From an uncultured Lentisphaeria bacterium (GTDB lineage: Bacteria; Fidelibacterota; UBA8477; JABMPR01), in contig CAZVSF010000005.1 in NCBI GenBank assembly GCA_964630195.1, forward strand, positions 1-33,956: a DNA stretch of 33,956 nt. Reading direction: 5' to 3'. A model generated the notes under the pieces. The model had not been told where the DNA came from, did not search any database, and saw only the letters and a list, made by a program, of their open reading frames with translations. The translations under genes were made by a program, and so were the position numbers. This document shows positions 8,042-33,956 of the stretch, piece after piece; position 1 is the stretch's first letter, and the number at the start of each line of letters is the position of its first letter.

Positions 8042-8049
8042 GGGGCAGC

Positions 8050-11856: not shown

Positions 11857-14133
11857 GTGATATTAACCCCAACAATGACCTCCAACTCGAAAACCAATCT
11901 CTTCAACAAACAGGATCTTTCCATCTATCGGGCGATCCTTGATCAATCTGCTGAGGGGTTCTCTCTATTGGATTCTTCAGGTAGTTTTATAGGTGTGAAT
12001 CAATCTTTTTGCACACTTGCGGGGTACTCAGAATCTGAATTACTCGAGATGAAAATTAAGGATCTGGTTCCACCAAACCAACCACTCAAATTATTTCCAA
12101 AGCTTTTAGAAGGGGGCAGTGGTGAAATTCGCATCGAAATTCTGAGAAAAGATGGCAATCGACTGCATGCTGTGGTCAGGGGCAGTTCCATCACCTATAA
12201 TGATAAAGCCTACTTTATGGGTATTGTCAGTGACATCAGTGCCCAGTATGAAGCAGAACGTTTACTGCAGATCAGTGAAACAAAATATCGATTCCTCTTT
12301 GATGCAGCACCGGAACCCATCGTCATACACGATGGTGAGAAAATTCTCGATCTTAACCAGGCTGCCGTAGATGCCCTCTCTCTTCCCGATAAAAATGAGG
12401 CGATCGGAATTCATCCTTTTGGACTATTGCATCCTGAAGATAGAGCCCTGGCGAATCAAAGACTGGTGGAGCTTGAAAAAAACAAGGGTCAGCGTCTGCC
12501 TACTGAAGAATTTCGAATTGTACTACCAGACAATGAGGAACGCACCGTCCTGGCCTCTCCGACTGCCATTGAATTTAATGGCCGACAAGCTTTCATGGTG
12601 AACTACCATGATATTACTGAGCGTAAGAAGACGCTGGAGGCCCTGAGGAGGAGTGAGCAAAATTACCGCAATGTGGTCCAGGATCAGAGTGAATACATCA
12701 TACGCTATCTTCCAGATGGATCGATCACATTTGTAAATGACAGTTTTTGTCGGGCTTTTGGCACCAGTCTGGAAGAAGCCACCAGCAAGAATGTGACCCA
12801 GGGAAATCTGGAGAGCGAAATCATCAGGATCAAAAAGAAAATTGAAGCGCTTACACCAGAAAATCCTATCGTTTCCGATGAGCATATAACCATTTCCATC
12901 GATGGTGAAGAGGTTTGGCATCACTGGTCAGACCGGGGCATCTTTGACGAAGAGGGGCGTCTCAAGGAAATTCAAGCCGTTGGTCGTGATATTACCACGC
13001 GCAAGCGCATTGAAGAATCATTGCATGCCAGTTCCACCCAGCTTGAGGAAGCCCAAAGATTGGCCAATATTGGATCCTACATTCTGGACATAAACAATGA
13101 TAGTTGGACCGGGGCTGACATCCTCTATGAAATGTTTGGAATTGATGATACAGCTGAACTTAACGTGGCTGCATGGTCGGCGATAGTCCATCCAGACGAG
13201 CGGGATAAAATGACTGCCTATTTTGCATCTCGGGTAGCCAACAGACATAAATTTTTTGATAAAGAATACCGCATTGTGAATAAGAAGGATCTAGGCGTTC
13301 GCTGGGTCCACGGTCTTGGGGAATTCACCTTTGATGAGGAGGGGAACCCTCTCAAAATGATCGGAGTCATCCAGGATATCACCGAGCGCAAGCAAGCCCA
13401 GGAGCAACGTGAGCAAGCCCTTCTGGATGCTCAGACCGCTAATCGGGTAAAAGATCAATTTATCTCCAACATCTCTCATGAGATCAGAACACCCCTGAAC
13501 AGTATTCTGGGATTTTCTGACATTTTAAATACACGCTATAACCATGTAGTTAATCCTGATGATGCCAAGATCTTTGGGTTTATCAATCATGCCAGCCAGC
13601 GCCTGATGCGAACCGTTGATTCAATATTGAATCTCTCTCAGCTGGAGGCAGGGACCATTAAAACTTATCTGCACCAAATTGACCTTGTGAGCATCGCAAA
13701 AACGGTGATTGAAGATTCTCAACAAATTGCAGAGGAAAAAGGTCTCGACCTTGCGCTGAAAACCAAATTTGATCAAGCCATGGTATATGCGGATGAATAT
13801 TGTATGCAGCAGGTCATCACAAATTTGATGGAAAATGCAATCAAATTCACAGTGCAGGGTTGTGTCGAAATTGAAATTGATCGGCAAGGATCACAATTTG
13901 TTCTTTCCGTGATCGACTCGGGTATCGGAATTTCAGAAGATTACCTTAAAAGAATTTATAAGCCCTATTCTCAGGAGAGTGAAGGGTTTACAAAAAATTT
14001 CCAGGGCATCGGTCTGGGCATGGCCCTGACCAAGCGATATGCCGACTTGAATAATGTGGAAATCAAGCTGAAGAGCAGAGCTGGAGATGGTACAACCTTC
14101 ACCCTGATCTTTCCAGAAGGTGAGGGGAATTAA
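11857..14133 (+). CDS. Multi-PAS sensor histidine kinase (module 1, type-A kinase)
   Basis: Four PAS-like units separated by D-I-T-E/T-R-K linkers ([26 protein letters not shown]). H-box [16 protein letters not shown], N-box [10 protein letters not shown], G1 DSGIGI and G2 GIGLGMAL are present. No TM segment, so the protein is cytoplasmic. The start could be the GTG at 11857 or the ATG at 11875. Confidence 0.9.
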   Translation: [758 protein letters not shown]

Positions 14134-14134
14134 A

Positions 14135-14518
14135 GTGCCTGATAGCAGCAGGAGAATATTGATTGTTGAGGATGATCTCTCATCACAGCAATACTACCGA
14201 TTCATATTTGAAAAAAAATATGAGTTTAACATTGTGTCCACCATTGCCCTTGCAAAAAAGGCACTGGAAGAACACACTTATGGAATAGCCCTGGTAGATT
14301 TTTCACTCTCCGCAGGTGAGAATGGTCTGGATCTCATTAGATTCATTGCTTCTGAGTATGGCGGACACCCACTAGCTATTGCGCTTACGGCCCATGCATT
14401 TCCCCATAACAAAGAGGACGCATTGAAAGCTGGTGCTGTAGAATTTCTGACCAAACCCATCATGAGTCGTGATTTGCTGGCCACAGTTGAGAAGTATCTG
14501 GGAGATAGTTCCCAATAA
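14135..14518 (+). CDS. Single-domain response regulator (receiver only; module 1)
   Basis: ILIVEDD acidic pocket, phospho-acceptor D in ALVDFSL, T in ALTAH and K in LTKP. The GTG at 14135 lies directly after the kinase's TAA and has a GGTGAGGGG RBS. It is preferred over 14120 by analogy with the paralog at 27422. Confidence 0.85.
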   Translation: MPDSSRRILIVEDDLSSQQYYRFIFEKKYEFNIVSTIALAKKALEEHTYGIALVDFSLSAGENGLDLIRFIASEYGGHPLAIALTAHAFPHNKEDALKAGAVEFLTKPIMSRDLLATVEKYLGDSSQ

Positions 14519-14867
14519 TATTCAACTAAATTGCCTTGTAAAAGAATGCCTGTACACTGCTCCGGTTGATAAATTTTCAATAATAATATCCAGATTTAAC
14601 CCTTTCCAAGGGACAGCTAACTTGACCTCATGGAGAAGTAATAAAAATATTACAGAACGATTTAACTGTCATATATAAGTTACGCCCCTGAACATCACTT
14701 CACAAAATAATAAATCATAAATACAATATTATCATATAGATATAACTTTCATCATTAATGGCACATCATTTGACGTTATGATACGATAAGAATCAGATGG
14801 GTTCAACATCACCAACACCCCTATTGTTTTCTGTTACGATGATACCAATGAGGAAGGATTCTGCCAG

Positions 14868-16328
14868 ATGAAAAAAGTTATAAAACCCAATAGAGATGCC
14901 CTGGAATTTCTTCCGGGTGCCTTGATCGAAATTGACATTTCGCAAGAGACATTGACATATATGAACCAACTGGCCCAGAATCTATTCGGGATTCATCCAG
15001 AGCAGATTGAGGCTGGGTTGCCCATGCTCGATATTTTTCTGAATGAAGCAGAATATAGCAGGGCTAAAGAATTGGCCGCGTCCTTTGCTCTGGAAAGCTA
15101 CTCCAGCAATACTCCATATATTCGTCACAAAGAACAAAATTTACAAGATTTTTGGTTTAAAAAGGCAGATGGGACAAGTTTTTTTGGTGCGACTCAGGGG
15201 TCCTTTGTGCTGGATGATAACCAAGTTCCTGTCGGGATGATTCTTTATATCCGCGATCTCACCGAGCAGAAAAATACTGAAAGAGCGCTCCAGGAAAGTG
15301 AAGAGCAATATAGAACCCTGGTTGAATACTCCAGTGATTTAATTTTTCTCATCAATGAATCAGAAGAAGTGTTGTCTGTGAATAAAGCTGCGGCGAAATC
15401 GATTGGTCGAGACCCGCAAGAAATACAAGGTCAAAAAATTAGCTCTCTTTTTTCACCCAAGATCGCCAATATATACAGCGCCAGTCTGCATAAGGTCTTT
15501 CTTACAGGTGAAGCAGCCAGTTACGAATCAACCTTGATGAGCAGGAACAAAAAGATATGGATCGATACGATGTTGCAGCCTATAAAGCATGCCGATGGTA
15601 AGGTATCGGCCGTGCTTGGTGTGAGCAGGGATATTACAGCTCGGAAAGAGGCTGAGATCAAGATCGAGGAATCAGATCGTTTGCGTGAACTCCTCCTGGA
15701 TGTGGTAACCCATGACCTCAAAACCCCGGCCAGTGTTATCTATGGCTTGTCTGATATGGCACGTGAATATTTACCGGAGGATGAGGTCATAGAGAGTATC
15801 TATTTAAGCAGTGAGCGCTTAATTGGTGTTCTCGAAAATACATCAGTTCTAAGCAGAGCGGTTTTTGGTGAAGAGATCCCAAAAACTGAACTATCCCTGA
15901 AAGAGATGATCCAGAACATAGGAACTGAATTTGCCTCTCAACTGGACAATGCTGGGATGGTTCTGGAGATGCGGGTGCCAGAGCAGATTGTGATCAAAGC
16001 CAACCCCCTGGTCGGCGAAGTATTTAAAAATTATATCAGCAATGCAATTAAGTACGGCAAAGATGGAAAAAAAATTGTCGTGGAAGCACTGGAAGAGAAT
16101 AAGTCGGTGATTGTGGGTGTAAAAGATTTTGGAAGAACCATTCCCGTGGAGAAGCGCAAGCTTATATTCGAACGTGGGTCACAGCTTGCCAAATCCAAAA
16201 AACAAGGTCGTGGTCTGGCTATTGTCAAACGTATTGCCAGGGCACATGGGGCTGATGTTGGAATTGAAGCCAACAATCCACAGGGAAATATATTCTACCT
16301 GCGCCTGAATCAGGATCAAACAGGTTAG
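14868..16328 (+). CDS. PAS sensor histidine kinase (module 1, type-B kinase)
   Basis: Two or three PAS units (RDLTEQK and SRDITARK linkers). H-box VTHDLKTPASVI, N-box NYISNAIKYG, G1 VKDFG and G2 GRGLAIVKR are present. RBS gaggaagg lies upstream. Confidence 0.9.
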   Translation: MKKVIKPNRDALEFLPGALIEIDISQETLTYMNQLAQNLFGIHPEQIEAGLPMLDIFLNEAEYSRAKELAASFALESYSSNTPYIRHKEQNLQDFWFKKADGTSFFGATQGSFVLDDNQVPVGMILYIRDLTEQKNTERALQESEEQYRTLVEYSSDLIFLINESEEVLSVNKAAAKSIGRDPQEIQGQKISSLFSPKIANIYSASLHKVFLTGEAASYESTLMSRNKKIWIDTMLQPIKHADGKVSAVLGVSRDITARKEAEIKIEESDRLRELLLDVVTHDLKTPASVIYGLSDMAREYLPEDEVIESIYLSSERLIGVLENTSVLSRAVFGEEIPKTELSLKEMIQNIGTEFASQLDNAGMVLEMRVPEQIVIKANPLVGEVFKNYISNAIKYGKDGKKIVVEALEENKSVIVGVKDFGRTIPVEKRKLIFERGSQLAKSKKQGRGLAIVKRIARAHGADVGIEANNPQGNIFYLRLNQDQTG

Positions 16329-16357
16329 AGAACGAATCAGTATCGGAAGGTTATAAG

Positions 16358-17086
16358 ATGCCAGAGCCAATCAATGTTCTTGTGGTGGAAGATGATCCTC
16401 AAATGGTCAAATATGTTGGGTTTAAACTGAATTCACTTGGCTACCATGTTGCTGGAGAAGCAGCTACCGAATCCAGCGCTGTTGAACAGGCCAGGAATCT
16501 CCGCCCTGATCTCATTCTTATGGATATTATGCTTGAGGACAGTGGGGATGGCATTGATGCGGCTAACAAGATTCTATCTTTTTATGATGTGCCCATTGTG
16601 TACTTGACTGCTCATGAAGATGAAGTCATGTTTCAGCGGGCTAAAAGCACTAGGCCCTTCGGGTACCTGGTCAAACCATTTAACGATCGTGATCTCGATC
16701 TGGTCATCGATAGTGCCACATACAGACAAAGGCAGAACGCGAAGCTGGCCCGTTCTCTGGAAGATGCACGCAACATCATCAACAGCTCATTTGTGCTGAT
16801 CATAACTTTGAATGCCGATGATATAATTATTGAGTTTAATCCTGCAGCCGAGTGGGAGCTGGGCTACACACATGGAGAGGTGTTGGGAAAACACATCTCC
16901 AACTTTTTAGCGAAGCCAGCCGACCTTGAAGTGATCAAAAAAACACTATCCGGGGGTAAGGCCAGAAGTCAGCTGGAACTAGAGTTCCGCCATAAAAATG
17001 GAACAAAAATCGGTTGTTTACTGTCCCTTTCTCCGCTAAAAAACTCCCATGAAGATCTCAGTGGTATCCTCATGATTTCAAACTAA
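16358..17086 (+). CDS. Response regulator with C-terminal PAS domain (REC-PAS; module 1)
   Basis: VLVVEDD, LILMDIML, VYLTAH and LVKP receiver signature, followed by a ~105-aa PAS fold (IITLNADDIIIEFNPAAEWELGY...). No DNA-binding or enzymatic output domain. Confidence 0.9.
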   Translation: MPEPINVLVVEDDPQMVKYVGFKLNSLGYHVAGEAATESSAVEQARNLRPDLILMDIMLEDSGDGIDAANKILSFYDVPIVYLTAHEDEVMFQRAKSTRPFGYLVKPFNDRDLDLVIDSATYRQRQNAKLARSLEDARNIINSSFVLIITLNADDIIIEFNPAAEWELGYTHGEVLGKHISNFLAKPADLEVIKKTLSGGKARSQLELEFRHKNGTKIGCLLSLSPLKNSHEDLSGILMISN

Positions 17087-17108
17087 AGCCGGATCAACCC
17101 TCCCGGAA

Positions 17109-18803: not shown

Positions 18804-19247
18804 TTTTGATTTGCGATTTGCAGGGTAAATCTAGCTGTGTATCGCGAAGAGACAAAAAAGTAAGTTTTGCGAACCAGGTATCTTTTGTTGGGTCATTTGT
18901 AATCAGAATGTGGCTGAATAATGAGATTGGCTGTAGGGAAAATTGGGTCACCATCAGGATGTAATTCAGAGGAGGACCTTCATGTTTTTCTGAAGAAAAC
19001 GAAGGATTTTTTCATTTTAATTTCTTAGAATTGGATTCAGACCGATGATTCTCTAAATTCTGATAATAACAGGGTTTGGATGCCGAACCGCGGACACTTA
19101 TCTTCCTGCAAATCCGTATCATCGCATTAAAAACGTTTATTCAAAAAGTGCTTTATCGTGGGGACGAATGATATATGGAAAAAACAGCTGATCAAATAGT
19201 GCTGAAGAGCAGAATAATCTATTGGATGACGACATTCGCAGGGTGTA

Positions 19248-20093
19248 ATGAGTAGTGTTGACGTTCAAGAGATCGATCTCATCCTGGGCCATCTCCAGGA
19301 GCAGACCGGATTGGATTTCTTTGGAAATTATTCTTCCATGATCGGCAGGCGTCTTCGAATCCGCATGTCAAAAACCGGGCAGCAATCATATCAGGACTAC
19401 TCGGTCTATCTTCAGCAAAATAATGATGAATTGGCAGAACTTCTTGATTCGCTTACCATAAGTGTGACCAGCTTTTATAGAGATCCATTTACATTTGAGT
19501 TTATTTATGAACATGTATTACCTCATATTTTTGAGGAAAAAGGAAAATCCCGAGATGCGACCTTGCGGATCTGGTGTGCCGGTTGTTCCACCGGTGAGGA
19601 AGCCTATTCCATGGCTATCCTGCTCAAAGAAATGAAGGAAAAACATCCGGATTCAAAGATCGCTCCGTCGATTTTTGCAACAGATATTGATCAACATGCT
19701 CTAGAAGCAGCACAAGCGGGTCGATATAACTTGAAAAGTGTGTGGAATGTGAAGCAGGGGCAAGTCAGCAAATATTTCAAGGTGCATGGCGAGAGCTTTG
19801 AGATAAACACTGAGATAAAGAAATTGGTGGAGTTTTCAACCTTTGATATGCTCAGCGATCTGACACTGGCGCCACCAGACAGTATATTTGGTGGGTTTGA
19901 TATTGTGCTCTGCCGGAATCTATTGATCTATTTTACAGCTGAATATCAGGTCAAGATCATGACCAAACTCTACGAATCTTTGAATCTTAATGGTGTATTG
20001 ATCCTGGGTAAAACAGAGAGACCTCTGGATCCGTACAAACTCAAATTTGTAGAAGAAAACTCACGTGCACGAATCTATAGAAAAGTCGTCTAG
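19248..20093 (+). CDS. cheR: CheR-type protein-glutamate O-methyltransferase
   Basis: CheR_N-like helix region and TSFYRDPFTFE (TxFFRD motif). SAM-binding RIWCAGCSTGEEAYSMAILL, plus FDIVLCRNLLIYF. 281 aa, the typical CheR length. Confidence 0.9.
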   Translation: MSSVDVQEIDLILGHLQEQTGLDFFGNYSSMIGRRLRIRMSKTGQQSYQDYSVYLQQNNDELAELLDSLTISVTSFYRDPFTFEFIYEHVLPHIFEEKGKSRDATLRIWCAGCSTGEEAYSMAILLKEMKEKHPDSKIAPSIFATDIDQHALEAAQAGRYNLKSVWNVKQGQVSKYFKVHGESFEINTEIKKLVEFSTFDMLSDLTLAPPDSIFGGFDIVLCRNLLIYFTAEYQVKIMTKLYESLNLNGVLILGKTERPLDPYKLKFVEENSRARIYRKVV

Positions 20094-20257
20094 GCATATT
20101 AACCGGTATTAATATATGATACTATTAGTATACCCGGTCCTTGTAGAAATTGCGAAATTTATTCTTATTCGCCGACGAACTGAAAGCTTGTATATTGTAA
20201 TAATCCCCGCACCAGGACGCGGTGTGTTACATTTTATCCAGTATCGAGGAGTCATCC

Positions 20258-22069: not shown

Positions 22070-22134
22070 CAGGAAGAAGTTGACACAGCACCGAGAACAA
22101 AAAAGTGAGATGTAAATAGAGTGGAGATCAGAAC

Positions 22135-25476: not shown

Positions 25477-25509
25477 TCAAGGGATTCACTAAACTGGCAA
25501 AGGATACTT

Positions 25510-27429
25510 ATGGTTAAAATTTTAGTTGTTGATGATAAACCGGATAATCTGGTGGTTGTCAAAGCCATATGCAGAAAACATATGCCCGAAATAGAAGTAA
25601 TTGCTGCCGGCTCTGGACGTGAGGGTATCGATCTCACCAAGTCTGAGCAGCCTGATACGGTTTTACTGGATATCATCATGCCTGGACTAGATGGTTTTGA
25701 AGTGTGCCAGATCCTAAAGTCAGATCCTCAAACCAGCCATATTCCAATTATTTTACTTACGGCTATCATGACCGACAGTAAAGCGCGTGTCAAAGGTCTT
25801 GAACTCGGGGCAGATGCCTTTGTGAATAAGCCCATCAACGAAGATGAACTGATAGCCCAGATCAAGGTCATGCTGCGTATCAAAACGGCTGAAGATCTTT
25901 TACGTCAGGAAAAAGAATTGGTCGAGGACCAGTTACAGGGTAGCGAAACCCGCTACAGGGATCTGTTCAGCAACATGGCTGAGGGATTTGCCCTGTGCGA
26001 AATCATACTTGACCAAAAAGGGAAACCCTATGATTACCGACATCTCACGGTGAACGATGCCTATACGAAACAGACCGGCATTCCCACGCAAGCGGTCCTG
26101 GGCAAGACAGTGAGAGAGTTATTCCCAGATGTCGAGGATGTATGGATAGAGAACTATGGTGAAGTAGCCCTGACTGGTAAAGCGAAAAGTTTTGTAAGTT
26201 ACAACCACAATACAGACAAATATTTTGATGTCCGGTCATTTTCGCCTTCCAAGGGAATTTTTGCACTGCTGGTCCAGGATATTACTCAAGCCCACCTGGA
26301 TAGTGTGGAATTGCGCAGGAGTGATGAATTCAATAAATCCATTACCAGGACGGCACCCTATGCCATTATATCCACGGACGATGAAGGGCAGGTGCTCAGC
26401 TGGAATAAGGCAGCTGAGGCTTTGTTTGGTTTCGAGGAAAAGGAGATGTTGGGAAAAACCCTGGAATCAATCGTTCCTGTCCAGTATCTAAAGAGTCATA
26501 TTGCGGGTTTAAAACGGTTGAAAGATGGCGGAGCTCCTAAGCTATTAGGCAAAACTGTCGAAATATCCGCGCTCAGAAAAAGAAAAGAAGAATTTCCAAT
26601 TGAGCTGGGAATTTCCAGCTGGTCCAATGATGACAAACGTTTCTACACAGCCATAATTCGTGATATTTCAGACCGAAAAAGAATTGAATCAGAGCTTCAG
26701 AAAGCGGTGGAAGTTGCGGAACATGCCAATGAAGTCAAGGATCAATTCATTGCCAATATCTCCCATGAGATCCGGACACCTCTGAATAGCTTATTGGGCT
26801 TCACTGATCTGGTTAAACAAAAGTATGGATCAAAAGTAGAGGATCTCGACAGACAGATCTTCGGATATATTTCCAACTCCAGTAATCGACTCCTGGCAAC
26901 AGTGGATGCCATCCTGAATATCTCCCAGTTAAGTACGGGTAGTATTGTGGTTCACCCCAAGAAAAATGACCTTTGTACACTCGCCCGACTGGTGGTTGAA
27001 GATCTAAGACCTATGGCTGTGAATAAGGGGCTTGAAGTGCAGATGGACATCCCCAAGGAGGCATTGATCTCCTTGATTGATGATCAGAGTGTTTACCAGG
27101 CTTTGCACAACGTCGTCGAAAATTCCCTTAAATTTACCAGAGAGGGTGAAGTTGGAATACACTTGAAACAAAAGGATGGATTCGTAGAGCTATCCGTAAG
27201 AGATACTGGGGTCGGAATATCAGAGGAGTACCAGAAGCGTATGTTTCAACCCTATACTCAAGAGAGCGAGGGCTTCACCAAAGATTATCAGGGAATTGGT
27301 TTGGGTTTGGCCCTGGCGAAGCGATTCCTGGAGCTGAATGATGTAGCAATTGAAGTGGAAAGCGAGAAGGGTGTTGGCACGACCTTCAAACTTATATTTA
27401 AGGTGTATGAGGAGCACAACAATGACTGA
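25510..27429 (+). CDS. REC-PAS-PAS histidine kinase (module 2, type-A kinase)
   Basis: N-terminal receiver ([27 protein letters not shown], VNKP) and two PAS units. H-box [16 protein letters not shown], N-box [10 protein letters not shown], G1 DTGVGI and G2 GIGLGLAL are present. The kinase core is clearly paralogous to that of 11857-14133. Confidence 0.9.
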   Translation: [639 protein letters not shown]

Positions 27430-27796
27430 TAAAAATCCAAAAATTTTGATAATCGAGGATGATCTATCCTCGCAACAATATTATACAATTATCTTCGCCG
27501 GGCAATACGAGATCATGATCGCCTCAGATGTGGCTGAGGCTAAAGCAATGCTGAAGGAGCACGAATACGAGGTTGCCATTGTAGATATTTCATTACCTGG
27601 TGATGAAAATGGTCTGGATCTGATCGAGTATCTTTGTCTGGAATATCCCGGAAAACCAGTTCCCATTGCCCTGACTGGGCATGCATTCCCCAAAAATCGT
27701 GAGGATGCTCTGGCAGCTGGTGCAGTTGAATTCTTCACCAAACCCATCATGAGTAAGGTATTGCTGGATACCATGGCAAAGTACATCGCGATATAA
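27422..27796 (+). CDS. Single-domain response regulator (receiver only; module 2)
   Basis: MTDKNPKILIIEDDLSSQQYY..., roughly 55-65% identical by eye to 14135-14518. The ATG at 27422 overlaps the upstream kinase's stop (AATGACTGA). The ORF-track start at 27350 lies inside the kinase gene and is rejected. Confidence 0.85.
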   Translation: MTDKNPKILIIEDDLSSQQYYTIIFAGQYEIMIASDVAEAKAMLKEHEYEVAIVDISLPGDENGLDLIEYLCLEYPGKPVPIALTGHAFPKNREDALAAGAVEFFTKPIMSKVLLDTMAKYIAI

Positions 27797-27824
27797 ATTC
27801 ATGCTTGGGGGATAAAGGATTTAA

Positions 27825-30446
27825 ATGAGGATGGAGAACAAGTTGAAGCTTAAGACATCATTGGGTGACCATAAAATTGCCACCATTGCACTGCTGCTCG
27901 GGTCTATCGCCGTATTTGGAAGCCTGCTCATCGGCTGGAATGTGCTTAAGATAACATCATCGGAAATTGAACATCAGATCTATCACTACTACAATACCAA
28001 GGCGATGTCGCTGGCACTGCTTTCACCTGCAGATGAAGCCCTTTCCGATTCTGAACTCCTGGCAGAAATAAACAGGAAGTGGCAGTCCTCATTTGAAAGA
28101 CCCCGTGATGAATATATTTGTATTGTGGATACATCATCGAATTTACTATTACATAGCGCTGACCCAGGAACTGTGGGCTCTTTCGTCGGCGAAAATTTGC
28201 TGGTCAGTACACTTGATGAAAGTTACGCTACATTAGGTGAGTTGGTTCGTGGTTCTGATCAATACATTGGCGATTATATCTCCAGTATAGGCGAGGACCA
28301 GATCGCTGCTTTTACCCCCATTGGGCATAAAGGCTGGATGTTGGGTGTTCATCGTTCAAAAGAATTGGTTGAGCAAGAGATCAGGGATTCTCTGCGTACT
28401 GAATTTTGGGGTATACTGATCGTTTGCCTGTTGATCATTCCCCTGTCATTGGGTCTCCTTTATCTGGCGATCCATCGATCAAATATGCGGAACAGAGAGA
28501 TGTTTGAAGCCCTGTCCAGGGAGGAAGCGCTCCTGACTGCCTTGATGGAAGGCAGTCCCGACCATATCTATTTCAAGGATCTGAAAAGTCGCTTTATCAA
28601 AACGAATAAAGCGCAATCGACATTTTTAAATTTAAATCATCCAGATGAAGCAGTGGGTAAGACTGATTTTGATTTTTTCCCTGACAAACATGCTCAAGCT
28701 GCCTTTGATGATGAACAACGGATCATCAGAACAGGACAGGCACAGATAGGCGATGAAGAACACCATGTGAAAAATGGTGCGGATCTCTGGATTTCGGCTA
28801 CCAAGCTACCGCTAAAAGATGGTAATGGGGAGATATTCGGCACGGTGGGAATTTCCCGGGATATCTCAGAACTTGCGCTGGCCAGGGAAGAGTTCAGGAA
28901 GCAAAGTAAGTTTCTTGAAGAAGTCATTGAATCCCTTCAACATCCTTTCATGGTCATCGACGTCAATGACTATTCGATTAAACTGGCCAACTCAGCCGCA
29001 AAGAGCAAATCATTCCATAGTACGACAACGTGTTATGCGCTAAGCCATGGCCGCGAACTACCATGCGAATCGGAGGAACACCCCTGCCCTTTGGTGATGA
29101 GCAGAGACACCAAGAAACCATCTGTGGTTGAACATATTCATCTGGATAAAGACGGAAATCCCAAAAATTTTGAGGTCCATAGTTACCCTATTTTTAATGA
29201 ACATGGAGAAGTTGTCCAGGTTATTGAATATTCCCTGGATATTAGCAAGCGTAAAAGTGCTGAAGAGAAACTTCAAAGAGAGTATGCTTTACAGAAAGTG
29301 CTCTATAAAATCGCCAGAGCCGGGCAGTCTGCAGATACACTTGAAGATCTGTGCCGAGGTATGCACGTCTCACTTGGAGGCATCCTGGACACCAGCAATT
29401 TCTTTATTGCCGTCGTTGACGATGAGCACAGCAAGTTGTCATTTCCATTTTTTATTGATGAATTTGATGGTCATCCCGGAAGCGTTGATTTTGGGAAGGG
29501 TCTTACGGAATATGTGATCAGGACTGGAAAATCTTTGATGGTCAATGGCAATGAAATGGACAAAATGGACCAGAGCGGAGACATAGAGCTCAAGGGGACA
29601 CCTTCAAAAATCTGGTTGGGTACACCCCTAAAAGCCGGCAGTCGTCTCCTGGGGGCCATCGTGGTTCAGAATTATTCGGATGAAACTCATTTCGATAAAT
29701 CCCATCTGAACCTGCTTGATTTTGTTTCCTCTCAGATCACCTCATCCGTCATTGCCAAGCAGGCGGACGATAAGCTGGCGGTCTCCGAGCGACTGAAAGA
29801 ATTATTGCTGGATATCATTACCCATGATCTGAGGAATCCCATTGCCAGCATTTACAATTTTTCAGAGCTGGCCTCATCGATGTTAGGAGATAATGAAATC
29901 ATCGAGCATATCCATATTGGTAGTACGAAACTCCTGAAAGTCCTGGACAATACAACCCTGTTGAGCCAGGCGGTATTTGGAGAATCCATACCTCTCGAAT
30001 CAATAAACCTTTGTGAGATGATACAAGGGACCATGGATGAGAGCGCCGAACAGGCAAGTAAGGCAGAAATGTCCATTGAGATTGACTGCCCTTCTGATCT
30101 AACTGTCCGGGCAAATCCCATTTTAGCCGAAATCTTTAAAAATTATATAAGCAATGCCATTAAATATGCAGCTAGCGGAAAAAAGATCATGGTTCGTGTG
30201 ATCATTGAGGATGGTGTGATCATCCGTGTAGAAGATTTTGGGAAGGCTATTCCAGAGGACCAACGGAGTATTGTTTTTGATCGGAATATTCAACTGGCAA
30301 AAGAGAAAAAGGTGGGACGGGGACTTGGTTTGGCAATTGTAAAAAAAATCGCTCAGGTGCACAACGCTCGCGTATGGGTGGAGCCAAACACACCCAGGGG
30401 CAATCGTTTTTGCATACATTTGCCAGACGAGTTATTAAAGAGCTGA
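27825..30446 (+). CDS. Membrane sensor histidine kinase: TM-periplasmic (Cache-like) domain-TM-PAS-Cys/His-rich PAS-GAF-HisKA-HATPase (module 2, type-B kinase)
   Basis: TM1 is IATIALLLGSIAVFGSLLIGW and TM2 is FWGILIVCLLIIPLSLGLLYLAI. PAS (SRDISELA linker), then a second PAS-like unit containing CYALSHGRELPCESEEHPCP, then a GAF-like block. H-box ITHDLRNPIASI, N-box NYISNAIKYA and G2 GRGLGLAIVKK are present. The kinase core is paralogous to that of 14868-16328. Confidence 0.9.
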   Translation: MRMENKLKLKTSLGDHKIATIALLLGSIAVFGSLLIGWNVLKITSSEIEHQIYHYYNTKAMSLALLSPADEALSDSELLAEINRKWQSSFERPRDEYICIVDTSSNLLLHSADPGTVGSFVGENLLVSTLDESYATLGELVRGSDQYIGDYISSIGEDQIAAFTPIGHKGWMLGVHRSKELVEQEIRDSLRTEFWGILIVCLLIIPLSLGLLYLAIHRSNMRNREMFEALSREEALLTALMEGSPDHIYFKDLKSRFIKTNKAQSTFLNLNHPDEAVGKTDFDFFPDKHAQAAFDDEQRIIRTGQAQIGDEEHHVKNGADLWISATKLPLKDGNGEIFGTVGISRDISELALAREEFRKQSKFLEEVIESLQHPFMVIDVNDYSIKLANSAAKSKSFHSTTTCYALSHGRELPCESEEHPCPLVMSRDTKKPSVVEHIHLDKDGNPKNFEVHSYPIFNEHGEVVQVIEYSLDISKRKSAEEKLQREYALQKVLYKIARAGQSADTLEDLCRGMHVSLGGILDTSNFFIAVVDDEHSKLSFPFFIDEFDGHPGSVDFGKGLTEYVIRTGKSLMVNGNEMDKMDQSGDIELKGTPSKIWLGTPLKAGSRLLGAIVVQNYSDETHFDKSHLNLLDFVSSQITSSVIAKQADDKLAVSERLKELLLDIITHDLRNPIASIYNFSELASSMLGDNEIIEHIHIGSTKLLKVLDNTTLLSQAVFGESIPLESINLCEMIQGTMDESAEQASKAEMSIEIDCPSDLTVRANPILAEIFKNYISNAIKYAASGKKIMVRVIIEDGVIIRVEDFGKAIPEDQRSIVFDRNIQLAKEKKVGRGLGLAIVKKIAQVHNARVWVEPNTPRGNRFCIHLPDELLKS

Positions 30447-30521
30447 TCAAAGACCAACTCCCACCTGTTATAGTTGACAGTATCTTGATGGATAGGCCTC
30501 AAAAGATCGAGGATAAAGGAA

Positions 30522-32714
30522 ATGTTCCTATTGCCGCAACACCACATTATAAGAAAAGAACAGGCTGAAGTCCTGGCTCTCTGCACGGGCACGATCTATT
30601 GGTCGCTTATCATAGTGCTACTCCTCTCAACACCTGGAGCTGTGCCTGGGAAAACCTTTGAGTCGAATCAGACATCCCTGAAGGGTGTGGATAAGTTTAT
30701 CTCCCATCTGGATCAATTAAAAAGATTTCGGTTTAAAACGGACTCAGTTTTGGTTGAGAGCACTCTGGATTCCTTGAGTAATGCGGTGGCGCAGGATCAA
30801 CTCCGATTGGCACAGGTGCATTATTATCAAGGTATATTTTACAACGTTCATAGAAACAGGGTGCGTTCCAGAGATTTTCAGAAACAGGCACTTCAACTCG
30901 CCCAGCATTTGAAAAATGATGAGCTCATTGCCAGGGTCTTAATTGAATTTGGCAAGCTAGAATCTGCAGAGGGAAATAACGCAGGTGCCATCGAGTACTA
31001 TTTATCAGCCATCGACTATGCCACAAGAACTGGAGATCATCGGGATGCGGCTGTCAGCTATTCATTATTGGGGAATATCTACCGGATCATGGGCGAATAC
31101 GATGACGCCATCAATTATATTACCAAGGCTGAGTCACATTATGCTGAAGAAGGGTACAGCGAAGGACAAGCCTGGGTCCAGTATTCACTGGCAAATATAT
31201 ATAAAGACCTGGACCTACTCGATGAAGCACTAGATTATTTCAATAAAAGTTTAGCCGTTTATGCCGATCAAGTCAGCCAGCCCGGGGACAGTCTTGGGGT
31301 TGCAATTTGTCTTGATCAGATTGGGGAAATTTACTTTGGCCAAGAAAAGTTTGAGGTCGCCCGAAAATTTGTGATGCGATCATATATTATCCACACTGAG
31401 ATGAACAATATTCATGGAATCGTTATCACCCTGAAAAATCTGGGTAAAATTGAATATGAATTGAAGAATTATGCACGATCTCTCCAGTATTTGACCCGCG
31501 CAATAAATTCGAAAATTGACTCAAAGGATGTTCTCGTGTCATCCCAGATATATGAATACATGGGCCGCTCCCTCTTTGAGATGGGTCAGCCTCAAGCCGG
31601 GATTGATACTGTAAAAGTGGGGCTGAACCTGGCTACTGATGCTCAACAGAGAAAAATGGAAAATCGTCTCTATGGCGTATTGGCAGAAATGTATCGTAAA
31701 GAGGGTGATCTGGTAAGTGCTTACGAATATTTATCTCAACAGGTGGCCTCTACCAAAGCCCTGGCTGATAGACTGGCTGAATTGAAAATCAGCGGGATGA
31801 AAAATTTTCATGAACGAGAAGAGCGACGCATACAGATAAATACCCTGAATTTCGAGAATCAGTTGATCAAAATGAAGCTGGATGAGCAAAGACGATCTCA
31901 ACTCTATCTGGCCTTGGTGCTCATCATGATATTGGTGGTCTCATTTGTTCTAATTTTTTTGTATTTATCGAAACGCAAGGCATTGCAACTGGTGGATGCA
32001 CAACGTAAGGAGCTTGAAGACCTGGTTGCCACTAAAAATAAATTTTTCTCCATTATCTCACATGATCTCAGATCACCAGTGGGTAGCACGATGCAATTGT
32101 TGGCAACGGCCATAGATGTTTTTCCATCACTGTCACGGGAAAAGGTCCTGGAATTGTTAACAACCATGAGTGAAGCAAGCAGCAACACCTTCAGGCTCCT
32201 GGAAAATCTGTTGATCTGGTCACGCATTCAAACAGGCACAATGCAGGTATATATAGATCGGTTGGATTTGCCGGAGCATATAGAACCAGTGCTTTCAATG
32301 CACAAGGATCAGGCTATTGGAAAAGGTTTGTCCTTGAGAAATGAGATCAAGGAGCAAATTTTTGTAAATGCAGATTCCGATATGTTCTCCGGGATTATGA
32401 GGAATTTAATCTCAAACGCCATAAAATATACACCTCGAGGCGGTGAAATTGTTATCTCAGCAACCCAATCCGAATCCGAAGTGGTCGTGAAAATAGCCGA
32501 TACTGGTATTGGTATCCCCCCAGATCAATATGAAAATATTTTTACGCTGGGAAACACCTTCAAACGCAAGGGTACCAGCGGAGAATCCAGTAGTGGTCTG
32601 GGATTAATCCTGGTAAAAGAATTTGTAGATAAACTTGGCGGTGAAATCAATGTAGAGAGTGAGATAAATAAAGGAACCTGTTTTTCTGTCTCCTTAAAGA
32701 GAGCAGAAATCTGA
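30522..32714 (+). CDS. TPR-repeat sensor histidine kinase with a single internal TM segment
   Basis: An N-terminal hydrophobic segment is followed by ~400 aa of TPR-like repeats (A..YY..AI.YA...GD...A, LG.IY...G.YD.A..Y). Then come a coiled coil, the TM LYLALVLIMILVVSFVLIFLYL, H-box SHDLRSPVGS, N-box NLISNAIKYT, G1 DTGIGI and G2 GLGLILV. The start codon is uncertain because the RBS spacing is poor. Confidence 0.85.
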   Translation: MFLLPQHHIIRKEQAEVLALCTGTIYWSLIIVLLLSTPGAVPGKTFESNQTSLKGVDKFISHLDQLKRFRFKTDSVLVESTLDSLSNAVAQDQLRLAQVHYYQGIFYNVHRNRVRSRDFQKQALQLAQHLKNDELIARVLIEFGKLESAEGNNAGAIEYYLSAIDYATRTGDHRDAAVSYSLLGNIYRIMGEYDDAINYITKAESHYAEEGYSEGQAWVQYSLANIYKDLDLLDEALDYFNKSLAVYADQVSQPGDSLGVAICLDQIGEIYFGQEKFEVARKFVMRSYIIHTEMNNIHGIVITLKNLGKIEYELKNYARSLQYLTRAINSKIDSKDVLVSSQIYEYMGRSLFEMGQPQAGIDTVKVGLNLATDAQQRKMENRLYGVLAEMYRKEGDLVSAYEYLSQQVASTKALADRLAELKISGMKNFHEREERRIQINTLNFENQLIKMKLDEQRRSQLYLALVLIMILVVSFVLIFLYLSKRKALQLVDAQRKELEDLVATKNKFFSIISHDLRSPVGSTMQLLATAIDVFPSLSREKVLELLTTMSEASSNTFRLLENLLIWSRIQTGTMQVYIDRLDLPEHIEPVLSMHKDQAIGKGLSLRNEIKEQIFVNADSDMFSGIMRNLISNAIKYTPRGGEIVISATQSESEVVVKIADTGIGIPPDQYENIFTLGNTFKRKGTSGESSSGLGLILVKEFVDKLGGEINVESEINKGTCFSVSLKRAEI

Positions 32715-32793
32715 GTGTACACCCTGAACTCAAATAATTTTTAGTTTAGCCCTGCTTTACATTTCTTTAACTAAATTAGAATCAACTTGTTGG

Positions 32794-33552
32794 CTAATGT
32801 GAGATCATCAGAATGCCATTGGGGTTATTCTGGGAATCTCGAAGAATCGAGAGTGACAACATGCAGGCCATATGTTGACCATCCTTTAGAATGAATTCAA
32901 TCTCCATCTGGGTTCTTCGCCCCCGTGCGATATTGGTTTTTATGAGGGGGAGGTCATCTGGATTAACTAAATAGTCTAAAATATACTGGCCAAAGACTTC
33001 CTCGTGGTCATAACCAAGTACCCATTGCGCAGCCTGATTGAACTCGACGATATTATCCTCTTTATTGAGGGTAATGATCATGACAAAAGCACTATCAATA
33101 ATGCTGCGGGCATTTTCCAATTCCTGGACGAGCTCTCGCTTTTTCTCCTGCCGATACGTGGCTGTTTCAATCACCAGGTTCAGATCACGATCATTGAAGG
33201 GTTTTAACAGGTACCCAAATGGTTTGGTGATCTTGGCGCGTTGAAAGAGTTCATCATCTTCATGCGCTGTGAGATAGACAATGGGTATATCTGTAAAGGA
33301 GTGGATCTTTTGGGCGGCGATGATACCATCATCATCATTGTCCAAAATAATATCCATTAATATCAAGTCAGGTTTGAGTTCCTTGGCGAGTTGAATGGCC
33401 CCTGACTCGTTGCTCGCCTGTCCAGCGACTCTGTAGCCTAAATAGCCCAATTTAAAAGTGATAAATTTGGCCATTTGAGGATCATCTTCAACAATGAGAA
33501 CTCGTGTTGGACGATCTTCATCTACCATCAGAGCTTTGGTCCGCATTGACAT
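32794..33552 (-). CDS. Response regulator with C-terminal PAS domain (REC-PAS; module 2, inverted orientation)
   Basis: VLIVEDDPQMAKF..., LILMDIIL, VYLTAHED and LLKPFNDRDL, followed by a PAS fold. It aligns end to end with 16358-17086 (over 50% identity by eye). Confidence 0.9.
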   Translation of the reverse strand: MSMRTKALMVDEDRPTRVLIVEDDPQMAKFITFKLGYLGYRVAGQASNESGAIQLAKELKPDLILMDIILDNDDDGIIAAQKIHSFTDIPIVYLTAHEDDELFQRAKITKPFGYLLKPFNDRDLNLVIETATYRQEKKRELVQELENARSIIDSAFVMIITLNKEDNIVEFNQAAQWVLGYDHEEVFGQYILDYLVNPDDLPLIKTNIARGRRTQMEIEFILKDGQHMACMLSLSILRDSQNNPNGILMISH

Positions 33553-33956
33553 GAGTAAATTCCAATAATTATTGATTTTTCAGGTAGAATATAATACATG
33601 CTTTGTTGTATACAATCGAGCCTTTGCCTCAGAGGAAGATTTCAGGTCTTTGGGGAGGAAGCACCGCACAAATGGTAAGCTCAATAATGGTGGTGCAGTT
33701 ATTAAAAATGTCTCATTTTTACAGGGGCGACAGTTTTGATCCCTTCTTTCAATCCCAGCGAGCGCTTAACGCACATTTATGAGACTCACTTGGGCTTTAA
33801 GGGTTATGGGATGCAATTACTTAGCGAGGATCCCCACTGAATAGAGGACCATTTCCACCATATAATGGGGGAGTCCCCTACAAAAAGATGATCCTTATAT
33901 CGTACTTTTCACCTGTCACTAACAAGAAGACAGGGAGAGCATCATGAAAACTTTAA

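What the first reader, a model, noticed from the sequence alone, without database searches (positions are those of the whole stretch)
11857..33552. Anciently duplicated four-gene signalling cassette (PAS-HK / receiver-only RR / HK / REC-PAS)
Seen in the sequence: there are four pairs of paralogues in the same relative order.
- The kinase cores of 11857-14133 and 25510-27429 match ([28 protein letters not shown]... versus [28 protein letters not shown]..., down to ...[18 protein letters not shown] versus [18 protein letters not shown]).
- The receiver-only RRs at 14135-14518 and 27422-27796 match (ILIVEDDLSSQQYY... versus ILIIEDDLSSQQYY..., and TKPIMS in both).
- The kinase cores of 14868-16328 and 27825-30446 match (RLRELLLDVVTHDLKTPASVIY versus RLKELLLDIITHDLRNPIASIY; EVFKNYISNAIKYG versus EIFKNYISNAIKYA).
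- The REC-PAS proteins 16358-17086 and 32794-33552 align over their full length.
- Sensor regions differ. Module 1 kinases are cytoplasmic multi-PAS proteins. In module 2 the type-A kinase has gained an N-terminal receiver, and the type-B kinase has gained TM, periplasmic and GAF domains.

Inference: a conserved two-kinase/two-regulator core circuit has been duplicated and rewired to new inputs. A two-kinase/two-receiver unit ending in a REC-PAS protein does not, as far as I know, match a named pathway.
Basis: seen in the sequence. Interest (0 to 1): 0.65.

Follow-up and report, generated by a model that had tools for sequence, protein, structure and literature searches.

The report
Two old paralogous kinase–receiver–kinase gene sets
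An uncultured marine bacterium (Marinimicrobia) carries two old copies of a lineage-specific kinase–receiver–kinase gene set, each with a REC-PAS regulator nearby; the similarity is real, but it is ordinary two-component gene-family growth and not one four-gene block copied at once.

Summary
The four paralogue pairs are real. Kinase core A1/A2 is 47% identical, receiver R1/R2 59%, kinase core B1/B2 49% and REC-PAS P1/P2 59%. Each pair is the reciprocal best hit within the window.

P2 lies on the minus strand, and an unrelated TPR kinase gene separates it from B2.

Related Marinimicrobia contigs show that the conserved unit is the three-gene set A-R-B, not four genes. It comes in two old types.
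- Type 1 has a soluble multi-PAS A, then R, then a roughly 300-nt spacer with a conserved sigma-54-like motif, then a 484-aa B. It occurs in 7 lineages, and P follows B in only 2 of them.
- Type 2 has a REC-PAS A and a membrane-bound PAS-GAF B. It sits inside a larger cluster: CheR, hybrid kinase, A, R, B, a variable gene, convergent P, then a lipoprotein gene.

A1 and A2 are each closer to kinases in other lineages (54-56%) than to each other, so the split is old. The type-2 sensor domains are shared across type-2 lineages, so "gained" is unsupported.

The likely mechanism, inferred only, is two kinase-receiver pairs (A to R, B to P). No curated family or characterised system matches. Interest is low to moderate.

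The parts
11198..11569 (+). Small gene of about 123 aa directly upstream of A1. It gives weak SpoIIAA-like/DUF7793 matches. The longest ORF starts at TTG 11150; the conserved start is MIKTSFD at 11198.
   Evidence: It is conserved upstream of type-1 A genes in L180, L182 and L092, at 59-62% identity. Pfam matches are DUF7793 (E 7.5e-4) and, for the L182 homologue only, SpoIIAA-like (E 0.011), all below cut-off. A single-sequence AF2 model was unusable, with pLDDT 39.
11857..14133 (+). A1: soluble histidine kinase with several PAS domains, then HisKA and HATPase_c (758 aa). The H-box His is residue 541.
   Evidence: Pfam. No transmembrane segment is predicted. It belongs to the type-1 A clade, with 100% bootstrap.
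14135..14518 (+). R1: stand-alone receiver (127 aa) that abuts the A1 stop codon.
   Evidence: Pfam Response_reg, E 1.5e-15. The acidic pair, the phospho-acceptor Asp, Thr and Lys are visible in the sequence. Its alpha-1 segment DDLSSQQYY is shared with all R proteins.
14519..14867 (+). R1-B1 spacer (349 nt). It holds a sigma-54-like -24/-12 element, TGGCACATCATTTGA, at 14759-14773, and two conserved upstream blocks at 14638-14654 and 14665-14685. It is a probable internal regulated promoter for B1-P1.
   Evidence: The element TGGCAYRTMANTTGA lies 72-95 nt before the B start in all 7 type-1 lineages, while the rest of the spacer is poorly conserved. It occurs once in the window, and that alone is not significant: 0.52 matches are expected by chance. 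No Rfam family matches.
14868..16328 (+). B1: soluble PAS histidine kinase (486 aa) with a divergent HisKA domain. The H-box His is residue 282. Its G2 box lacks two residues, reading GRGLAIV at 16206-16226.
   Evidence: Pfam. The type-1 B clade has 100% bootstrap. The two-residue gap is unique among the 17 B cores aligned.
16358..17086 (+). P1: REC-PAS response regulator (242 aa), 29 nt after B1.
   Evidence: Pfam. The AF2 model has pLDDT 91 and shows a REC domain, a 34-residue helix and a PAS domain. P1 groups with the L088 P1 at 75% bootstrap.
19248..20093 (+). CheR-type methyltransferase. It is the first gene of the extended type-2 cluster.
   Evidence: Pfam CheR, E 8e-48. A CheR gene abuts the hybrid kinase gene in L174 and L175.
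20222..22069 (+). PAS-only protein (615 aa) between CheR and the hybrid kinase.
   Evidence: Pfam. It is absent from L174, so it is a variable member of the cluster.
22135..25476 (+). Hybrid histidine kinase (HAMP, GAF, HisKA, HATPase_c, REC, REC), 33 nt upstream of A2.
   Evidence: Pfam. Orthologues lie directly upstream of type-2 A in L006/7 (43-47% identity) and, by position and domain content, in L171-173 and L174.
25510..27429 (+). A2: histidine kinase with REC, PAS, HisKA and HATPase_c domains (639 aa). The H-box His is residue 419.
   Evidence: Pfam. Its N-terminal REC is 54-70% identical to the REC of A in L171, L174, L006 and L002.
27422..27796 (+). R2: stand-alone receiver (124 aa) that overlaps the end of A2 by 8 nt.
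   Evidence: Pfam; coordinates; alpha-1 motif.
27825..30446 (+). B2: membrane-bound histidine kinase (873 aa). It has a transmembrane segment, a periplasmic region, a second transmembrane segment, a PAS domain, a Cys/His-rich PAS-like region (nt 28890-29309), a GAF domain and the kinase core.
   Evidence: Pfam. The WIN2+L171+L174+L006 B clade has 100% bootstrap.
30522..32714 (+). TPR histidine kinase (730 aa). It is not an A or B paralogue and occupies the variable slot between B2 and P2.
   Evidence: Pfam. It is 26-27% identical to the A and B cores. A TPR kinase gene sits in the same slot in L171-173.
32794..33552 (-). P2: REC-PAS response regulator (252 aa), on the minus strand and convergent with the type-2 operon.
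   Evidence: The same convergent position is seen in L002-L007 and L171-L175.
33945..33956 (+). First four codons (MKTL) of a gene cut off by the window end. It is probably the 131-aa lipoprotein gene that lies divergent from P in all type-2 loci.
   Evidence: The window ends ...ATGAAAACTTTAA. The homologues start MKTL or MKNF and carry a lipobox Cys.

Best explanation
The window comes from an uncultured Marinimicrobia (Neomarinimicrobiota) bacterium. It carries both old paralogous types of a lineage-specific three-gene signalling set.

The set has three genes.
- A is a kinase whose transmitter resembles those of hybrid kinases.
- R is a CheY-like receiver that abuts or overlaps the end of A.
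- B is a second kinase with a divergent HisKA domain.

The two types differ in sensors and context.
- Type 1 is soluble and senses through PAS domains. It is split into two transcription units by a conserved sigma-54-like promoter region in front of B.
- Type 2 has an A with an N-terminal receiver, which probably places it under the adjacent hybrid kinase. Its B is membrane-bound, with periplasmic, Cys/His-rich PAS-like and GAF sensor regions. It is embedded in a larger conserved cluster: CheR, hybrid kinase, A, R, B, a variable gene, convergent REC-PAS, a lipoprotein gene, and a receiver.

The A-R-B split predates the divergence of the sampled Marinimicrobia lineages. The REC-PAS gene was duplicated separately, and probably later. 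The extra copy was placed behind type-1 B in one sub-lineage, and that produced the four-gene look of module 1.

Inferred mechanism: each module works as two kinase-receiver pairs.
- A phosphorylates R.
- B phosphorylates the receiver gene that follows it: P1 in module 1, R' in other genomes, and probably P2 in module 2.
- P acts through protein-protein contacts of its PAS domain after a phosphorylation-driven change in a helical-linker dimer.

The A-R interface is almost unchanged between the two types, so the two A kinases may feed a common R pool. The B kinases have diverged at the positions that usually set partner choice, so they are probably insulated from each other.

What is shown: paralogy, synteny, domain content and the conserved motifs. 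What is inferred: every phosphotransfer step and the output.
For: Paralogy: pairwise identities and reciprocal best hits.

Taxon: homologues are named Candidatus Marinimicrobia or Neomarinimicrobiota.

Type-1 sets with the same layout occur in WIN/L001, L088/89, L092, L176/177, L178/179, L180/181 and L182.

Type-2 clusters occur in L002-L007 and L171-L175.

Clade support:
- Type 1: A 100%, R 85%, B 100%, concatenated 100%.
- Type-2 core: B 100%, concatenated 92%.
- WIN1+WIN2 as sisters: 0% in A, B and concatenated; 5% in R.

A1-A2 identity (47%) is lower than either against L002, L004 or L096 (54-56%).

Both types probably coexist in a second lineage.
- The type-1 locus L176 and the type-2 locus L002 come from the same sample.
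- Their B proteins both list a longest contig of 107,918 bp.

Further linkage: L088 carries a P2-like gene 3.3 kb after P1, and L092 carries the TPR kinase gene 5 kb before type-1 A.

A-R coupling:
- The genes overlap or abut in most loci examined.
- A's best NCBIfam matches are hybrid-kinase transmitters (HrmK, TorS, LuxQ, BarA).
- R's best matches are the receiver ends of HrmK and TorS.

Interface residues:
- A helix 1 ([16 protein letters not shown]) and R alpha-1 (DDLSSQQYY) are nearly invariant.
- B helix-1 positions +7, +8, +11, +12 and +15 read S,V,G,L,M in type 1 and A/G,S/M/L,N,F,L in type 2.
- P alpha-1 reads KY[VI]G in P1 and KFI[TS] in P2.

P1 model: REC, 34-residue helix and PAS, pLDDT 91.

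Spacer motif: conserved in 7 lineages.
Against: - No phosphotransfer has been measured, so partner assignment rests on gene order and interface residues only.
- Five of the seven type-1 lineages have no P after B, so B1's general partner cannot be P1. It may be R, or the 120-124-aa receiver found downstream in L176, L178 and L182.
- In the window and in L171, B2 has no receiver gene directly after it.
- The deep nodes of all trees are unresolved. The trees are neighbour-joining only.
- The A2 core does not group with its positional orthologues (1% bootstrap). R2 groups loosely with the type-1 R proteins (51%).
- P1's position in the P tree has only 47-51% support, so a P that was present in the ancestral type-1 set and later lost is not excluded.
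- The -12 part of the promoter-like motif reads TTGA, not the canonical TTGC. No enhancer-binding activator is encoded in the window.
- That the two B proteins sharing a 107,918-bp longest contig lie on one and the same contig is inferred from the matching length. It was not read directly.
Confidence: 0.55

Rival explanations
1. One four-gene cassette (A, R, B, P) was duplicated as a block in an ancestor, and module 2 was then rewired by gaining REC, TM, periplasmic and GAF domains.
For: There are four paralogue pairs in the same positional order. The R and P pairs have the same identity, 59%. A second lineage, L088, shows the co-directional A-R-B-P order.
Against: - P2 is convergent and separated from B2 by a TPR kinase gene.
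- P is absent after B in 5 of 7 type-1 lineages.
- P is convergent in every type-2 locus.
- The P genes of L002 and L004 branch outside the P1+P2 group (weak support). Meanwhile a type-1 B orthologue 60% identical to B1 over its full length is found in the L002 sample. So the A-R-B split looks older than the P split.
- The type-2 sensor domains are shared across the type-2 lineages.
Confidence: 0.15
2. The genes encode a co-linear four-step phosphorelay. A autophosphorylates and passes the phosphoryl group to R. R passes it to the DHp histidine of B, which serves as the second histidine station as well as a sensor. B then passes it to the receiver that follows (P or R'). The gene order His-Asp-His-Asp would mirror the flow.
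For: - The gene order is A-R-B-receiver in both types.
- R most resembles the receiver of hybrid kinases, which normally passes phosphate on to a histidine.
- No Hpt domain was found in any window protein scanned.
- All B cores shown have D-x-G-x-[T/A] instead of D-x-G-x-G in the G1 box.
- There is a precedent: the receiver protein RedD phosphorylates the kinase-like RedE in RedCDEF (PMC2755868).
Against: - B keeps conserved N, F and G2 boxes, as expected for an ATP-using kinase.
- Many B-type kinases stand alone, without A or R, in related contigs.
- The type-1 spacer with its own promoter-like element separates B from A-R in transcription.
Confidence: 0.12
3. A and B both act on the single receiver R, one mainly as kinase and the other mainly as phosphatase, in the manner of DivJ-DivK-PleC. 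The REC-PAS protein would be a separate, loosely linked regulator.
For: R is the only receiver present in every A-R-B set, and it sits between the two kinase genes. R alpha-1 is invariant in both types.
Against: - The helix-1 residues of A and B differ completely.
- B's residues differ between the two types while R's interface does not. That is not expected if B also docks on R.
- In four type-2 loci (L002, L004, L006, L174) B is followed closely by its own receiver R', and in three of them the genes abut or overlap.
Confidence: 0.13
4. Module 1 is not a duplicate made in this lineage. It is a copy acquired by transfer from another Marinimicrobia lineage and inserted next to the resident type-2 cluster.
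For: A1 and A2 are less alike (47%) than either is to kinases of other lineages. The neighbourhood of type-1 sets differs between lineages.
Against: - G+C content is even across both modules, at 0.42-0.46.
- Type-1 sets are widespread, and their tree roughly tracks the lineages.
- Type-1 sets are repeatedly found near type-2 components: P2 in L088, and the TPR kinase in L092 and L176.
- An old duplication followed by vertical descent explains the same identities.
Confidence: 0.05

Closest known systems
RedCDEF 'four-component' system of Myxococcus xanthus (PMC2755868)
   Same: It comprises four two-component proteins that work together: a kinase, a receiver protein, a second kinase-type protein and a single-domain receiver. 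None has a DNA-binding output.
   Different: RedD has two receiver domains, and RedE cannot autophosphorylate. Here R has one receiver domain, and B keeps its N, F and G2 boxes and its own sensors. No specific sequence relationship was found. Function is untested here.
Hybrid-kinase phosphorelays (TorS, ArcB, BarA, LuxQ, HrmK)
   Same: The A transmitter core and R give their best NCBIfam matches to the transmitter and receiver parts of these proteins. A plus R therefore looks like a hybrid kinase split into two genes.
   Different: All scores are far below the family cut-offs, for example 211 bits against 725 for HrmK. The receiver is a separate protein. No Hpt domain or Hpt gene was seen in the window.
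DivJ-DivK-PleC (two kinases around one single-domain receiver)
   Same: A single-domain receiver without an output domain is flanked by two kinases.
   Different: There is no specific homology: DivJ scores 118-129 bits against a cut-off of 1000. The genes here are clustered. Opposing kinase and phosphatase roles are untested.
REC-PAS response regulators as catalogued in archaea (Galperin et al. 2018, PMC5847659)
   Same: P1 and P2 have the REC-PAS architecture with no recognisable output domain. That paper proposes dimerisation and protein-protein interaction as the output.
   Different: The P family here is bacterial and, at 40% identity or more, was seen only on uncultured-bacterial contigs, the named ones being Marinimicrobia. 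It is tied to a fixed gene neighbourhood. No conserved Cys or His suggests a cofactor.
Duplicated and insulated two-component pairs (PMC9208753)
   Same: These are paralogous kinase-receiver sets within one genome. The B kinases differ at the usual specificity positions, as expected after insulation.
   Different: The A-R interface shows almost no divergence between the paralogues. That is not the usual outcome and suggests shared rather than insulated signalling.

Membership tests
Class I (HisKA/HATPase_c) sensor histidine kinases | An H-box with the phospho-accepting His in a HisKA/DHp domain | tested here: met
   A1 and A2 read SHEIRTPLN, with HisKA E values of 3e-15 and 9e-15. B1 and B2 read THDL[KR]xP, with HisKA E values of only 1e-4 (sequences).
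Class I (HisKA/HATPase_c) sensor histidine kinases | A catalytic domain with N, G1, F and G2 boxes | tested here: inconclusive
   HATPase_c is significant in all four kinases (E 1.6e-15 to 6e-22). However, the B cores shown have D-x-G-x-[T/A] in G1, and B1 of the window lacks two residues of G2, reading GRGLAIV where the others read GRGLGLAIV. Activity was not tested.
CheY-like receiver domains | An acidic pair, the phospho-acceptor Asp, a conserved Thr/Ser and a conserved Lys | tested here: met
   R1 and R2 show EDD, VD[FI]SL, ALT[AG]H and TKP in the sequence. In P, the Asp pair, D56, T84 and K106 are invariant or nearly so across 30 homologues. Pfam Response_reg gives E 1.5e-15 to 1.6e-22.
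REC-PAS response regulators (architecture class) | A receiver followed by one or more PAS domains and no further output domain | tested here: met
   Pfam finds REC plus PAS only. The AF2 model shows a REC domain, a long helix and a PAS domain, with the protein ending at the last PAS strand.
PhyR family anti-anti-sigma response regulators | A sigma-like N-terminal domain plus a C-terminal receiver, scoring above the NCBIfam cut-off | tested here: not met
   Only the receiver matches (85 and 80 bits against a cut-off of 240). There is no sigma-like domain, and the receiver is N-terminal.
Hybrid-kinase phosphorelay (TorS/ArcB/BarA type) | Transmitter, receiver and Hpt in one pathway, scoring above the family cut-off | tested here: not met
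   The best scores are 158-211 bits against cut-offs of 676-1200. No Hpt domain was found in any protein scanned.
RedCDEF four-component system | A dual-receiver RedD and a kinase-like RedE that cannot autophosphorylate | tested here: not met
   R has a single receiver domain. B keeps its N, F and G2 boxes. Autophosphorylation itself cannot be tested here.
Sigma-54 dependent promoter (for the R1-B1 spacer element) | A -24 GG and a -12 GC element with fixed spacing (TGGCAC-N5-TTGCW), plus rpoN and an enhancer-binding protein in the genome | tested here: inconclusive
   The GG element and the spacing are met, but the -12 element reads TTGA in all 7 lineages. No activator is encoded in the window. 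The presence of rpoN cannot be checked without the genome.
Any curated NCBIfam protein family (equivalog or subfamily) | A whole-protein score at or above the curated cut-off | tested here: not met
   None of the eight proteins reaches a cut-off, apart from the generic PAS 'sensory_box' domain model.

The most novel reading that the evidence does not exclude
The A-R-B set would be a Marinimicrobia-specific signalling unit in which gene order mirrors phosphate flow. Kinase A would phosphorylate receiver R, R would pass the phosphate to the histidine of sensor kinase B, and B would pass it to the terminal REC-PAS or REC protein. B would then be both a sensor and a relay station. The two old copies would share one A-R interface, so several inputs (cytoplasmic PAS, periplasmic, Cys/His-rich PAS-like, and a CheR-linked hybrid kinase) would be integrated into a common pool.
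Probability: 0.12. Interest if true: 0.55.

Novelty: new member of a known kind. Interest (0 to 1): 0.3.

Why it matters
If the reading is right, a widespread but uncultured marine phylum has kept two versions of a kinase-receiver-kinase unit side by side for a long time. One interface (A-R) is frozen and the other (B) has diverged. That is a natural test case for how duplicated signalling sets become insulated or stay coupled, and a starting point for working out what Marinimicrobia sense. It is not a new kind of system. Every protein is an ordinary two-component part, and clusters of paralogous kinases are common in bacteria.

Tried and rejected
1. Genome-collection scan with the P alignment. 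No close relative came back (best 36% identity), so there is no species-level census.

2. Metagenome scan with the B-core alignment.

3. Tree building.
- Biopython bootstrapping first timed out.
- Its support values after rerooting were wrong.
- I recomputed split supports myself.
- Only neighbour-joining on corrected p-distances was possible. The deep nodes stayed unresolved.

4. Rfam scan of the window: no match. The R1-B1 spacer is therefore not a known RNA element.

5. The sigma-54-like pattern occurs once in the window, and 41 of 100 shuffles also give at least one match. The case rests on conservation across 7 lineages, not on the count.

6. Structure search with the P1 model: only per-domain matches, and no solved full-length REC-PAS relative.

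7. The small gene upstream of A1.
- A profile search of the PDB found nothing.
- The single-sequence AF2 model had pLDDT 39 and was not used.
- The tool does not accept homologues from loci, so an alignment-based model could not be run.

8. Gene conversion between R1 and R2. I considered it because R2 groups loosely with type-1 R proteins (51%). It is not supported: R1-R2 identity is 59%, similar to R2 against L108 or L092 (63%).

9. Chance resemblance within large families. I rejected it on reciprocal best hits, specific clades and conserved synteny.

Full report
**What is in the window**

The plus strand carries these genes:
- A1 (11857-14133): a soluble kinase with several PAS domains.
- R1 (14135-14518): a stand-alone receiver.
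- A 349-nt spacer.
- B1 (14868-16328): a soluble PAS kinase.
- P1 (16358-17086): a REC-PAS protein.

Next comes a gene on the minus strand for a protein with a secretion-sorting tail (17109-18803). The plus strand then continues:
- CheR (19248-20093).
- A PAS-only protein (20222-22069).
- A hybrid kinase (22135-25476).
- A2 (25510-27429): REC, PAS, then the kinase core.
- R2 (27422-27796).
- B2 (27825-30446): a membrane-bound kinase with PAS and GAF domains.
- A TPR kinase (30522-32714).

P2 (32794-33552) lies on the minus strand. G+C content is even across the region, at 0.42-0.46.

**Checking the observation**

All-against-all BLASTP gives the following:

| Pair | Identity | Aligned length | E-value |
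|---|---|---|---|
| A1/A2 | 47% | 250 aa | 2e-73 |
| R1/R2 | 59% | 128 aa | 1e-52 |
| B1/B2 | 49% | 234 aa | 7e-67 |
| P1/P2 | 59% | 239 aa | 9e-105 |

Each pair is a reciprocal best hit. The other two kinases in the window match A and B at only 26-32%. The domain descriptions hold.

Module 2 is therefore not a contiguous, co-directional four-gene unit.

**Where it comes from**

- A 99.5% identical contig from JGI sample 3300002231 covers 11886-26783.
- Close homologues of P, B1 and B2 are labelled Candidatus Marinimicrobia or Neomarinimicrobiota.
- At 40% identity or more, the P family was seen only on uncultured-bacterial contigs, and the named ones are Marinimicrobia.

**Type 2 is part of a larger conserved cluster**

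Positional orthologues of module 2 occur in several lineages.
- L171-173: hybrid kinase, A (REC plus several PAS domains), R, B, TPR kinase, convergent P, a 131-aa lipoprotein gene, and a receiver.
- L174/175 and L006/7: CheR, hybrid kinase, A, R, B, R' (a 127-aa receiver that overlaps B), a Tll0287-type kinase, convergent P, the lipoprotein gene, and a receiver.
- L002-L005: A, R, B, R', convergent P, the lipoprotein gene, and a receiver.

The window ends with ATGAAAACTTTAA, which encodes MKTL. That matches the start of the lipoprotein gene. In type 2, P is always convergent, and the slot between B and P is variable.

**Type 1 is a widespread three-gene set**

Full-length B1 orthologues (484-492 aa, 57-70% identical) are common. 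Their contexts share one layout:
- a small gene of about 123 aa;
- A with several PAS domains and no receiver (753-882 aa);
- R (123-130 aa);
- a 277-359-nt spacer;
- B (484-492 aa).

This layout is seen in L176/177, L178/179, L180/181 and L182, and also in L088/89 and L092. A REC-PAS gene follows B only in the window and in L088. The four-gene order of module 1 is therefore a feature of one sub-lineage.

**Trees**

I used neighbour-joining with my own split bootstraps.
- The type-1 clade is strongly supported: A 100%, R 85%, B 100%, concatenated 100%.
- The type-2 core (WIN2, L171, L174, L006) is supported for B (100%) and for the concatenation (92%). It is not supported for A (1%), where the A2 core floats.
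- WIN1 and WIN2 are sisters in 0% of replicates for A, B and the concatenation, and 5% for R.
- A1 and A2 are 47% identical, but each is 54-56% identical to the A kinases of L002, L004 and L096.

The split is therefore at least as old as the divergence of these lineages.

A type-1 locus (L176) and a type-2 locus (L002) come from one sample. Their B proteins both list a longest contig of 107,918 bp. Both types therefore probably coexist in that distant lineage as well, although I did not read that contig.

In the P tree, P1 of the window and of L088 group together at 75%. They sit beside the 252-aa P2 clade at 51%, with the P genes of L002 and L004 outside. This is weak, but together with gene content it favours a separate and later P duplication.

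B-type cores form a large family. Many members stand alone, or pair with an A-type kinase without an R.

**Direction of domain change**

The N-terminal receiver of A2 is homologous (54-70% identity) in WIN2, L171, L174, L006 and L002. The transmembrane, periplasmic, PAS, Cys/His-rich PAS-like and GAF regions of B2 are homologous (45-68%) across largely the same loci. These domains are old within type 2. 'Gained in module 2' is not supported. Loss or replacement in type 1 is at least as likely.

**Anatomy that bears on mechanism**

- A and R abut or overlap in most loci examined. A's core best matches hybrid-kinase transmitters, and R best matches hybrid-kinase receivers. All scores are below the family cut-offs. 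A plus R thus looks like a split hybrid kinase.
- A's helix 1 after the histidine and R's alpha-1 (DDLSSQQYY) are almost invariant across both types and all lineages. The two A kinases in this cell could therefore both use both R proteins.
- B's helix-1 positions differ between types at all five usual specificity sites and are conserved within each type. P alpha-1 shows a smaller parallel change, KY[VI]G against KFI[TS].
- In type 2, B is closely followed by R' where R' exists. In module 1, P1 sits in that slot.
- The P1 model (pLDDT 91) shows a receiver, a continuous 34-residue helix and a PAS domain. This suits a helical-linker dimer. Only single domains match solved structures.
- REC-PAS proteins without an output domain are a recognised class, thought to act through dimerisation and partner binding (PMC5847659).

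**The spacer**

The spacer between R and B of type 1 contains an element that is nearly invariant across 7 lineages. It reads TGGCAYRTMANTTGA and lies 72-95 nt before B. Two further conserved blocks lie upstream of it. It matches the sigma-54 -24/-12 pattern except for an A at the last -12 position. B1 (and P1) is thus probably a separately regulated transcription unit. In type 2 the R-B gap is only 28 nt.

**Comparison with known systems**

None of the eight proteins reaches an NCBIfam cut-off. The nearest functional analogues are:
- RedCDEF, which has two kinase-type and two receiver proteins (PMC2755868);
- split hybrid-kinase relays;
- DivJ-DivK-PleC.

None passes a membership test. The work on insulation of duplicated pairs (PMC9208753) is relevant because here one interface diverged and the other did not.

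**Verdict**

The paralogy is real and the split is old. The unit that duplicated is A-R-B, not A-R-B-P, and type 2 is embedded in a larger conserved cluster. The mechanism is inferred, not shown. This is lineage-specific expansion of ordinary two-component parts. It is of some interest for signalling evolution in an uncultured phylum, but it is not a new kind of system.

Noticed in passing
window 28890-29309 (B2 residues 356-495): This PAS-like region has three invariant Cys and several invariant His (TCY..sH....PC....HPCP...VEHxH...EVHS). They are conserved in six type-2 B orthologues and absent from B1. It is a candidate metal, Fe-S or redox sensing site.
   Followed up: partly
window 16206-16226 (B1 residues 447-453): The G2 box of B1 reads GRGLAIV, two residues shorter than the GxGLGL form in all 16 other B cores aligned. 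The B1 protein encoded on the 99.5% sister contig is identical. It may weaken ATP-lid function.
   Followed up: partly
window 19248-25476: A CheR methyltransferase gene lies upstream of a HAMP-GAF hybrid kinase with two receivers. No chemoreceptor is in sight. In L174 the CheR gene abuts the hybrid kinase gene directly. This hints that the kinase, and not a chemoreceptor, is the methylation target.
   Followed up: partly
window 11198-11569: A small gene of about 123 aa with weak SpoIIAA-like/DUF7793 similarity is conserved directly upstream of type-1 A genes in four lineages. It may belong to the type-1 unit.
   Followed up: partly
L001 1-710 (window 11886-12595): In the 99.5% identical sister contig, A1 is called as two ORFs. 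A cluster of differences lies at window 12472-12476. This is either a strain-level disruption of A1 or an assembly error.
   Followed up: partly
window 33553-33956: A roughly 390-nt intergenic region lies between P2 and the start (33945) of a gene that probably encodes the conserved 131-aa lipoprotein. The two genes are divergent in every type-2 locus, so the lipoprotein may be functionally tied to P.
   Followed up: partly
window 5551-9210, minus strand: A 589-aa FAD-linked oxidase, a 243-aa acyltransferase and HMG-CoA reductase lie in a row. The first two recall the alkyl-DHAP synthase plus acyltransferase pairs of ether-lipid synthesis. This comparison is from memory and was not tested.
   Followed up: no
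L171, L172, L173 (start of each contig): Three independent assemblies of an abundant relative all break just upstream of the hybrid kinase gene. This suggests a repeat or a strain-variable segment there. In the window, module 1 lies further upstream of that point.
   Followed up: no
L006 7018-8508, L174 13031-14572: A kinase with a Tll0287-like sensor domain and a B-type core (44% identical to B1) fills the slot between R' and P. So a third B-type paralogue sits in some type-2 clusters.
   Followed up: partly
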